64,000 bases of DNA. Source: an uncultured Poribacteria bacterium (GTDB lineage: Bacteria; Poribacteria; WGA-4E; WGA-3G). The position numbers and the translations under genes are program-made. The notes beneath the pieces were generated by a model. It searched no databases and was not told where the DNA came from. It worked only from the letters and a program-made list of their open reading frames with translations. This document shows positions 3,510 through 3,955 of this stretch, in pieces; the stretch's first letter is position 1; every line of letters begins with the position of its first letter. The stretch is from assembly GCA_951813565.1 (NCBI GenBank), contig OX638351.1, positions 960,001 through 1,024,000 of the forward strand, read 5' to 3'.

Positions 3510-3955
3510 GTGATGCCACCCACTACCTAAAGGTAGGGGCTTCGGTTTCATCGCGATTGCGCTGTTTCCGAAGAAACAAGCGTCTTATTGTCGCTCCACC
3601 ATTAGGCCGTTATTCCGTATCAGAACGGTTTTATCAGGTATTGAACCCTGCGCACCCGGGCCTAAATAATAAAGTTTGTGGTGGCGATACAAGGCGTTGG
3701 ATTATTACTTCACAAGCGTTTTACATGAACGCCACCAAGAATAATGATGTTTTACAAGGTCTCACTTGCAACTTGCCATACACCATACGACTGGTGAGGG
3801 TAAGACTCAATCAAGAAATGATTGAGGTCGTATTCTTACCCCGCAAGTTGAAGATATTATACAAAATGTTAGACACAAAGTCAAGTCTTTTGATAAATAA
3901 CCTAATTAGCCGTCTACATCCCACAAGCTAAAGCATGGGATTTGACGGGAGAGTG
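3510..3955 (-). mobile_element. Non-coding IS200/IS605-family derivative with left-end hairpin, promoter, structured RNA and TnpB omega-RNA-like right end
   Basis: Left end CACTCTCCCGTCAAATCCC...GGGATGTAGACGG. Right end has GTGGAGCGACAATAAGACG and AAGCCCCTACCTTTAGGTAGTGGG, which match the tnpB element at 29482-30846. Inserted 3' of TTAA with no target duplication. Confidence 0.88.
3856..3884 (-). promoter_or_regulatory. sigma70-type promoter inside the IS605 derivative
   Basis: TTGACT-17 bp-TATAAT pointing toward the omega-RNA end. Confidence 0.75.

What the first reader, a model, noticed from the sequence alone, without database searches (positions are those of the whole stretch)
3510..3955. 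Protein-free omega-RNA mini-element that could reprogram TnpB in trans
Seen: this 446-bp element shares both ends with the tnpB element at 29482-30846, including identical 19-nt and 24-nt blocks in the right-end scaffold. It encodes no tnpA or tnpB, has its own TTGACT-17-TATAAT promoter, and is inserted precisely after TTAA (TTAG for the tnpB copy). Known: TnpB uses a right-end RNA whose guide is the flanking DNA and cuts empty donor sites next to a TAM. Inference: the element makes a second guide RNA (guide AGATTTTTGTCTTAGGAATA, the lipoprotein gene) for the catalytically intact TnpB 26 kb away. That would be a parasite of a parasite, or a dispersed multi-guide system.
Basis: partly seen in the sequence, partly recalled or inferred. 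Interest (0 to 1): 0.85.

Follow-up and report, generated by a model that had tools for sequence, protein, structure and literature searches.

The report
Gene-less mini-transposon carrying guide RNA
This 446-base stretch is a protein-less miniature IS200/IS605 transposon that sits in a lipoprotein gene and carries its own promoter, a TnpB guide-RNA scaffold and an extra conserved folded RNA domain; such guide-only elements are already known, but the extra domain is undescribed.

Summary
Window 3510-3955 (minus strand) is a precisely bounded, ORF-less IS200/IS605 mini-element (PATE). It lies after TTAA, and removing it restores a lipoprotein reading frame. It has a near-consensus promoter and a right-end RNA scaffold.

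The interpretation needs two corrections.
- The best-matching TnpB is not the one 26 kb away (family A, TTAG, scaffold 63% identical). It is a second family, B, with three copies elsewhere in the genome, all after TTAA. Its scaffold is 84% identical over 158 nt, and its protein is 55% identical to family A.
- Stand-alone omega-RNAs and PATEs served in trans by TnpB are already in print (passages read in PMC10691335 and PMC10055086).

The 20-nt guide matches nothing else in the genome. The likely role is therefore retention at its own site, not multi-site targeting.

The new part is a roughly 100-nt pseudoknotted 5' RNA domain that starts at the predicted transcription start. Covariation supports it strongly. 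It is joined to at least four different left-end/right-end (guide-scaffold) types across one bacterial family and matches no Rfam family. Its role is unknown.

This scan has noted similar "extra 5' domains" on PATEs in other genomes. Transcription, TnpB binding and cleavage remain untested.

The parts
3956..3959 (-). TTAA target/transposon-adjacent motif directly 5' of the left end
   Evidence: In G000, all 14 elements with this left-end type follow TTAA and all 28 with the other type follow TTAG.
3906..3955 (-). Left end with subterminal imperfect hairpin (TCCCATGCTTTAGCTTGTGGGA)
   Evidence: 96% identical over 50 nt to the left end of a tnpA+tnpB element (G000 4320891). 95% identical over positions 6-46 to family-B left ends.
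3856..3884 (-). Sigma-70-type promoter TTGACT-17-TATAAT
   Evidence: 11 of 12. A like promoter (at least 9 of 12) occurs in 24 of 27 related elements. In 22 of those 24 the -10 hexamer ends 5-6 nt before helix P1.
3754..3850 (-). Conserved 5' RNA domain: P1, P2 with a 7-nt bulge, P2a hairpin, a pseudoknot between the bulge and the downstream strand, and a small hairpin
   Evidence: 19 sequences, 98.5% of cells paired; 27 diverse sequences, 34 pairs, 97.8% paired, 27 pairs with compensatory change, 0 of 500 shuffles as high. The pseudoknot helix is 98.4% paired with 6 of 7 pairs covarying.
3680..3736 (-). Central long hairpin followed by a U-rich stretch
   Evidence: helices 6-8, with compensatory changes at two pairs of the basal helix. 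The sequence varies between sub-families.
3510..3665 (-). Omega-RNA-type scaffold: a three-way junction plus stems. It includes the right-end hairpin at 3518-3540 and ends ...GGTGGCATCAC.
   Evidence: 84% identical to family-B right ends over 158 nt. Helices 9-17 are supported by covariation. The junction stem changes from GCAGGCT/AGCCTGC in family B to TTAGGCC/GGCCTAA here.
3490..3509 (-). Predicted 20-nt guide (flanking DNA, codons 5-11 of the lipoprotein gene)
   Evidence: Assigned by position directly 3' of the right end. It is unique in the genome. That it acts as a guide is inferred.
3142..3968 (-). Interrupted lipoprotein gene: ATG at 3966-3968 and 3' part at 3142-3509. A GTG at 3517-3519 inside the right end is in frame.
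   Evidence: No homologue was found in 39 other genomes of the genus.
29482..30846 (+).
   Evidence: Pfam OrfB_IS605 plus Cas12f1-like TNB. It follows TTAG. Its right end is 63% identical to the mini scaffold.

Best explanation
The element is a non-autonomous IS200/IS605 transposon (a PATE) derived from a family-B tnpB element. The tnpB reading frame has been replaced by a promoter-proximal structured RNA domain.

Shown here:
- exact ends;
- insertion after TTAA into a lipoprotein gene;
- no coding capacity;
- a near-consensus promoter;
- a roughly 340-nt region whose helices are kept by compensatory changes;
- right-end homology to family B;
- a Y1 TnpA elsewhere in the genome on an element with the same left-end type.

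Inferred:
- The promoter makes one RNA of three parts: the 5' domain, the omega-RNA scaffold and about 20 nt of flank.
- A family-B TnpB made at one of three distant loci binds the scaffold.
- After TnpA excises the element, that complex cuts the rejoined TTAA|AGATTTTTG... site, so that recombination with a sister copy restores the element. [quoted passage not shown]
- The 5' domain most likely helps this RNA in cis, through stability, folding or competition for TnpB. Its role is the least certain step.
For: Ends and TAM.

ORF restoration: read.

No protein families in its ORFs.

Promoter. Its position relative to P1 is conserved; 24 of 27 related elements have a promoter of at least 9 of 12, and 22 of those 24 keep the 5-6-nt spacing.

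Scaffold: 84% identical to family B against 63% to family A.

Origin from family B: sub-family L046 minis keep the last codons of family-B tnpB (TGCAGGCTGGGGTACCC) at the junction.

Covariation over the whole RNA: 94 pairs, 98.5% of cells paired, 26 pairs with compensatory change, 0 of 500 shuffles as high.

Family-B TnpB:
- It has OrfB_IS605 and TNB domains.
- It aligns with solved TnpB chains at E 4e-45.
- By eye it keeps the GIDFG, IAIETL and HHDRD motifs and the CxxC pairs.

Co-occurrence: family-B-like tnpB is present in all three other genomes that hold full-length copies, G003, G020 and G013.

Transposase in trans: a Y1 TnpA sits on an element whose left end is 96% identical over 50 nt.

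RNA-library contigs: those covering the interior include 3525-3929 with 1 difference, 3527-3669 with none, and one contig running from 3869 through the right end into another flank. This is only weak support, because contigs cannot show transcription.

The concept itself is in print.
Against: - No direct evidence of transcription, processing, TnpB binding or cleavage.
- The RNA-library contigs may be DNA carry-over. One of them also covers the left end upstream of the promoter.
- The scaffold differs from family B at 16% of positions, mostly in the three-way junction, so compatibility is assumed.
- The central hairpin is followed by a U-rich tract. This could stop transcription before the scaffold. 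The simple terminator scan found none.
- There is only one copy in this genome and no empty site in relatives, so current mobility here is unproven.
- Nine elements in this genome combine a TTAA-type left end with a family-A right end. The TAM alone therefore does not exclude family-A TnpB.
Confidence: 0.6

Rival explanations
1. One reading: the RNA reprograms the family-A TnpB encoded 26 kb away (window 29642-30754).
For: - The last roughly 90 nt of the two right ends are about 80% identical and include the 19-nt and 24-nt identical blocks.
- Family-A TnpB is abundant, with about 25 intact copies at 88-100% identity.
- Nine elements pair a TTAA-type left end with a family-A right end, so family-A proteins may tolerate TTAA.
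Against: - The whole scaffold is only 63% identical to family A.
- Family A has a simple hairpin where this RNA and family B have a three-way junction, and the last 10 nt differ.
- A much closer family B exists with the same TAM.
- Family A already has its own protein-less partners: the 409-bp minis, 8 copies, whose last 119 nt are 97-98% identical to family-A right ends.
- Distance in the genome is irrelevant for a trans-acting protein.
Confidence: 0.15
2. The conserved 5' domain, with or without the central hairpin, is the real payload. It would be an independent roughly 190-nt RNA ending at the U-rich tract and acting on host or transposon targets. The omega-RNA end would serve only as the vehicle's retention device, or would be silent.
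For: - The same promoter plus 5' domain is joined to at least four different left-end/right-end types.
- The domain starts at the predicted transcription start.
- A conserved single-stranded AAAACAU stretch and a hairpin with a U-rich tail follow it.
- The module is confined to one bacterial family: 54 of 99 genomes, against 1 of 51 in the rest of the phylum sample.
Against: - No target or partner has been identified.
- No terminator was found by the simple scan.
- C-type members lack the U-rich tail.
- Among the 28 related loci read, the domain was never seen without IS200/IS605-type sequence around it, although several of these copies are damaged.
Confidence: 0.2
3. The structure is selected in single-stranded DNA, not RNA. 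Folding of the excised top strand would bring the two ends together or protect the circle during TnpA transposition, and any RNA would be incidental.
For: - IS200/IS605 elements move as single-stranded DNA of the top strand (established knowledge; also stated in PMC10055086).
- The top strand is the same strand as the RNA, so strand-specific wobble pairs (about 45 G-U cells, counted by hand) fit both readings.
- Three unrelated interiors in this genome's three mini families all look folded.
Against: - A strong promoter is conserved at a fixed 5-6-nt distance from helix P1 in 22 of 27 elements. A DNA-only role does not predict this.
- G-T pairs are poor in DNA, yet they are common here.
Confidence: 0.15

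Closest known systems
PATEs (palindrome-associated transposable elements) of IS200/IS605, including the PATE-like elements of Geobacillus stearothermophilus (Meers et al., preprint PMC10055086; passages read)
   Same: - Protein-less.
- Keeps the left-end and right-end hairpins of a resident IS.
- Inserted after a fixed short motif.
- Mobilised by TnpA in trans.
- The paper states that PATEs often encode omega-RNAs that must be used in trans by TnpB from other elements.
   Different: - This family has its own near-consensus promoter.
- It has a conserved pseudoknotted 5' RNA domain in place of tnpB.
- That domain is shared between PATEs with at least four different end types.
- I found no mention of such a domain in the passages read. 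The figures and supplements of that paper were not seen.
Stand-alone omega-RNAs of OMEGA systems (Altae-Tran et al. 2021, as summarised in PMC10691335; passage read)
   Same: Mobilised guide-RNA loci that lack an effector, found in genomes that also hold effector-bearing loci, and reported to work in trans with compatible effectors.
   Different: - The 2021 paper itself was not read here.
- Activity of this RNA is untested.
- An extra 5' domain is present.
IStrons (group I intron fused to IS605/IS607 tnpB elements; bioRxiv 10.1101/2023.11.20.567912, passages read)
   Same: - A structured RNA lies at the left side of an IS200/IS605-type element, upstream of the omega-RNA.
- The element sits inside a gene in sense orientation.
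   Different: - No Rfam group I intron match at E up to 10.
- The upstream exon ends in A and the element ends in C. By recalled knowledge, group I splice sites need U and G.
- The domain is only about 100 nt.
- Most copies lie outside reading frames, judged from the flanks.
ISDra2 TnpB and its omega-RNA (PDB 8exa, 8bf8, 8h1j)
   Same: - Family-B and family-A TnpB align with it (E 4e-45 for family B).
- The RNA overlaps the right end, with the guide outside the element.
   Different: - The proteins have diverged.
- The TAM is TTAA or TTAG. The ISDra2 TAM, TTGAT, is recalled and comes from no call.
- The scaffold sequence is unrelated at the nucleotide level, and no Rfam family matches it.

Membership tests
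IS200/IS605 PATE (protein-less derivative) | Both ends carry the subterminal hairpins of a resident IS200/IS605 element | tested here: met
   The left end is 95-96% identical to resident left ends. The right-end hairpin is identical to that of families A and B.
IS200/IS605 PATE (protein-less derivative) | No transposase or other protein gene | tested here: met
   Minus-strand ORFs are at most 37 aa. None of the 3 ORFs tested has a Pfam match.
IS200/IS605 PATE (protein-less derivative) | Insertion 3' of a fixed tetranucleotide without target duplication, and scarless boundaries | tested here: met
   TTAA precedes this copy and 21 of 23 related copies. Left-end type matches the flanking tetranucleotide in all 42 G000 elements that have one of the two recognised left-end types; 2 of the 44 have another left end. 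Excision restores the lipoprotein ORF.
IS200/IS605 PATE (protein-less derivative) | Several copies at different sites, and a Y1 TnpA available in trans | tested here: met
   One copy here, with further full-length copies in G003, G020 and G013 at different flanks. Ten Y1_Tnp matches in G000. One sits on an element with the same left-end type.
TnpB omega-RNA (stand-alone) | Scaffold homologous to the right-end region of a tnpB element in the same genome | tested here: met
   84% identical over 158 nt to three family-B elements.
TnpB omega-RNA (stand-alone) | Conserved secondary structure of the scaffold | tested here: met
   Helices 9-17 are 92-100% paired, and 6 of the 9 helices have compensatory changes. 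The alignment holds close relatives, so the power is limited.
TnpB omega-RNA (stand-alone) | It is transcribed through the right end into the flank | tested here: inconclusive
   Promoter predicted. Contigs from RNA libraries cover the interior, and one runs past the right end at another insertion site. Contigs cannot show transcription, strand or ends.
TnpB omega-RNA (stand-alone) | Binds TnpB and directs TAM-dependent cleavage of the matching target | not testable with these tools
   Needs pull-down and interference assays.
IStron / group I intron | Group I catalytic core and splice-site nucleotides | tested here: not met
   No Intron_gpI match at E up to 10. The boundary nucleotides are A and C. 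The rule that U and G are needed is recalled.
Any described RNA family (riboswitch, ribozyme, sRNA) for the 5' domain | Match to an Rfam covariance model | tested here: not met
   Rfam 15 at E-value threshold on the window element, three other G000 loci and six diverged members gave only chance snoRNA or miRNA hits.

The most novel reading that the evidence does not exclude
The promoter plus pseudoknotted 5' domain is a new, lineage-restricted class of structured RNA. It acts as a portable "leader" for protein-less transposons.

It has been joined to at least four different IS200/IS605 end and guide-scaffold types. This would follow if it gives any attached omega-RNA an edge in capturing TnpB made by other elements, or in recruiting TnpA or a host factor. 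It would then be a dedicated device for parasitising the parasite.
Probability: 0.3. Interest if true: 0.75.

Novelty: new variant of a known kind. Interest (0 to 1): 0.45.

Why it matters
Guide-only mini-transposons show that TnpB systems are modular: guides and nucleases can live on different elements.

This case adds a well-supported, undescribed RNA domain that travels with such guides and is exchanged between different guide types. If it raises guide stability or loading, it would explain how protein-less elements compete with tnpB-linked guides. It could also be tried as an add-on for engineered TnpB guide RNAs.

The genome also offers a clean natural data set. Two left-end types predict TTAG or TTAA flanks without exception. 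Chimeric elements there allow a test of whether the transposase's target rule and the nuclease's TAM must agree.

Tried and rejected
- Rfam: a gathering-threshold scan of the whole window found only SRP RNA, a cobalamin riboswitch and 12 tRNAs. E-value scans of this element and nine other loci gave nothing relevant.
- Group I intron / IStron reading: rejected (see the membership test).
- HDV-like, hammerhead and purine-riboswitch-like folds: compared by eye from memory only. The strand order resembles an HDV-type nested pseudoknot, but helix lengths and the lack of conserved junction nucleotides do not fit. No tool test beyond Rfam was made.
- Empty site in relatives: the lipoprotein gene has no match in 39 other genomes of the genus, so no unoccupied site could be shown.
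- Sequencing runs: only assembled contigs were available.
  - The flanks 3300-3485 are uncovered in the three RNA runs and covered in run X7.
  - Joints skipping 3536-3907 and 3775-3910 appear in single contigs. They lie between repeated hairpins and were not interpreted.
- RNAalifold paired columns 14-17 with 348-351 and 64-68 with 75-79. I replaced these with P1 and the pseudoknot, which covary better. The small 64-68/75-79 hairpin may still form and present the pseudoknot strand as a loop.
- The 5'-domain model finds no second site in G000, so the domain is not hidden inside the tnpB genes.
- Literature searches: one search was useful. One search gave nothing on extra 5' domains of PATE RNAs. 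One search failed on a term format. I therefore cannot say the domain is absent from print, only that these searches did not show it.
- Replication-strand bias of insertions was looked at only by eye from the list, and no pattern was evident. It was not computed.

Full report
1. What is there

Window 3510-3955 holds a 446-bp element that reads on the minus strand.
- Its first 50 nt carry an imperfect hairpin. Its last 33 nt carry the hairpin CCCCTACC-TTTA-GGTAGTGGG followed by TGGCATCAC.
- Aligned with the tnpB element at 29482-30846, it shares the left-end region and two identical right-end blocks of 19 and 24 nt.
- TTAA precedes the left end, and the right flank is AGATTTTTGTCTTAGGAATA.
- On the minus strand the upstream flank reads ATG CAT CTT TTA A and the downstream flank reads AG ATT TTT GTC... 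Joined, they give MHLLKIFVLGILVFLVSCG, a lipoprotein signal peptide in frame with ORF 3142-3519. The element is therefore a scarless insertion into codon 5 of a lipoprotein gene.
- Its minus-strand ORFs are at most 37 aa. These and a 209-aa antisense ORF have no Pfam match.
- A TTGACT-17-TATAAT promoter lies at 3884->3856 on the minus strand.

2. The genomic setting changes the pairing

The window lies in a single 5.43-Mb contig. That genome holds 51 matches to the window's TnpB. About 25 are intact copies at 88-100% identity (family A). Three are copies of a second family at 55% identity (family B), and there are more distant ones. There are also ten Y1 transposase matches.

I paired left and right ends genome-wide and found 44 elements.
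- Left-end type predicts the flanking tetranucleotide without exception. All 28 elements with GTCAAACC-type left ends follow TTAG. All 14 with GTCAAATCCC-type left ends follow TTAA. Two have another left end.
- This fits the known DNA-guided target choice of IS608-type TnpA. That rule is established knowledge and was not tested here.
- Right ends that finish in ...ATCAC (type B) occur only in four tnpB elements and in this mini-element, and all five follow TTAA.

Over the last 158 nt the mini-element is 84% identical to each of the three family-B right ends. It is 63% identical to family-A right ends, the window copy included.
- Family B and the mini-element share a three-way junction where family A has a single hairpin.
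- The junction's closing stem differs by compensatory changes: GCAGGCT/AGCCTGC against TTAGGCC/GGCCTAA.

Family-B TnpB has the OrfB_IS605 and TNB domains and aligns with solved TnpB structures at E 4e-45. By eye it keeps the RuvC-type motifs and zinc-finger cysteines, as family A does. The likely partner is therefore family B, not the TnpB 26 kb away.

Family A has its own protein-less partners. A 409-bp family has 8 copies whose last 119 nt are 97-98% identical to family-A right ends. A 404-bp family has 5 identical copies.

3. It is a family, and its interior is a conserved folded RNA

Full-length relatives at 74-82% identity occur in three other genomes of the genus. I fetched 23 of them.
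- All begin and end at the same bases, with unrelated flanks. Of the 23, 21 follow TTAA.
- These genomes also hold family-B-like tnpB genes at 70-74% identity.
- One sub-family keeps the last codons of family-B tnpB at the junction with the scaffold. The minis therefore arose from a family-B element by replacement of the reading frame.

The replaced part is not filler. I used an alignment of 19 copies running from the predicted start to the right end, with a structure I drew from visible compensatory changes.
- It has 94 pairs. 98.5% of cells are paired, against 91.4% in shuffles and 33-43% when partners are slid.
- 26 pairs show changes on both sides, and 0 of 500 shuffles reach the observed score.

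A covariance model of the 5' part, built without the pseudoknot, finds more diverged members.
- On 27 diverse members the 5' domain's 34 pairs are 97.8% paired, and 27 pairs have compensatory changes.
- The pseudoknot was not part of the model, so the alignment was not fitted to it. It is 98.4% paired with 6 of 7 pairs covarying.
- Wobble pairs (about 45 cells by my count) outnumber non-pairs. The structure therefore belongs to this strand only.

The domain has five parts: an outer helix P1; a helix P2 with the conserved sequence GGAYAGG/CCTRTCC; a 7-nt bulge that pairs with a strand downstream of P2; an apical hairpin; and a small hairpin followed by AAAACAU. A variable long hairpin and a mostly U-rich linker lead to the scaffold.

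In 24 of 27 members a promoter scoring at least 9 of 12 lies upstream. In 22 of those 24 its -10 hexamer ends 5-6 nt before P1. This argues that the RNA, and not only the DNA, is what is conserved.

4. The domain is modular

Among the 28 further loci I read, the same promoter and 5' domain are joined to at least four kinds of ends:
- type B (...GGGTG[GC][CT]ATCAC);
- type A (L087, ...GGGTACTATGAC with the family-A hairpin);
- a third type with other left and right ends (L097-L099, L102, L105, L107);
- a fourth type (L101, L103, L104, L106).

Several copies are damaged: L081, L082 and L090 by insertions, and L089 and L094 by internal deletions.

The model matches 54 of 99 sampled genomes of the bacterial family, 1 of 26 in a second family, and none of 25 in the other families of the phylum sample. 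No Rfam family matches any member tested.

5. How it most likely works

Shown here: a mobile, protein-less IS200/IS605 derivative with a promoter, a conserved RNA structure, a family-B-type scaffold and a unique flank.

Inferred: the promoter gives one RNA. Family-B TnpB binds its 3' scaffold. The complex recognises TTAA plus the flank only after excision has joined them, and cutting there triggers repair from a sister copy. This is the model tested for Geobacillus elements in PMC10055086 (passages read).

The guide has no other exact match of 20, 16 or 12 nt in the genome. I therefore see retention of this one insertion, not a multi-site targeting system.

A Y1 TnpA that could move the element sits on an element whose left end is 96% identical over 50 nt.

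Contigs from three RNA libraries cover the interior, and one runs through the right end of another copy into its flank. This is compatible with transcription but does not show it.

The role of the 5' domain is open. I rank the possibilities as follows:
- a cis-acting helper of the guide RNA;
- an independent RNA payload;
- a single-stranded-DNA structure that aids transposition;
- a sensor gating read-through, which I hold least likely.

6. Comparison with what is known, and verdict

PATEs are long known. PMC10055086 says they often encode omega-RNAs that TnpB from other elements must use in trans. PMC10691335 says stand-alone omega-RNAs were shown to work in trans.

What goes beyond the passages I read is the conserved, exchangeable 5' domain. 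Notes from this scan describe similar "extra 5' domains" on such elements in archaea and cyanobacteria. I did not compare sequences, so I cannot say whether any share this fold.

I rate the finding as a new variant of a known kind, of moderate interest.

Noticed in passing
window 29342-31201: The family-A tnpB element (29482-30846) also splits a reading frame in sense orientation. Joining the flanks gives ...GKLEIS|SEAFRDRERKPS... in frame. The right end supplies an in-frame ATG (30842) for the downstream part, just as the mini-element's right end supplies an in-frame GTG (3517-3519) for the lipoprotein.
   Followed up: partly
G000 genome-wide (44 elements): Left-end type predicts the flanking tetranucleotide without exception (28 TTAG, 14 TTAA). 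Nine elements combine a TTAA-type left end with a family-A right end and TnpB. These are chimeras in which the transposase's target and the nuclease's TAM may disagree.
   Followed up: partly
G000 247009-247417 and 7 more copies; G000 2117809-2118212 and 4 more copies: Two further protein-less mini-element families, of 409 bp (8 copies) and 404 bp (5 identical copies). They have family-A-type right ends and two other, unrelated interiors. Both are conserved at full length in other genomes of the genus. No Rfam match.
   Followed up: partly
L060 1501-1569; L061-L065: A 69-nt piece of the mini-element's central hairpin (positions 241-309) stands alone, at 85-93% identity, in six other genomes of the genus (seven sites). 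At the one site read (L060) it lies between genes, upstream of a beta-propeller-repeat gene. It is probably an old relic kept at an orthologous site.
   Followed up: partly
L081, L082, L090, L092 (inside or beside mini-elements); L060 about 1590-1700: A roughly 110-bp insert with inverted ends (TACCATTTCT...AGAAATGGTA) interrupts several mini-elements and intergenic sites. It looks like an unrelated miniature inverted-repeat element.
   Followed up: no
window 1855-5700: The element lies in an RNA-gene-rich stretch: a large-type SRP RNA (1855-2120), six tRNAs (2215-2392, 2987-3071, 4884-5246) and a cobalamin riboswitch (5468-5700). A second small lipoprotein-like ORF (2489-3028) lies next to the interrupted one.
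   Followed up: no
G003 and G020 (whole genomes): These two relatives hold about 92 and 80 TnpB matches, and 62 and 46 matches to the 5'-domain model. This is a very large load of guide-only elements.
   Followed up: no
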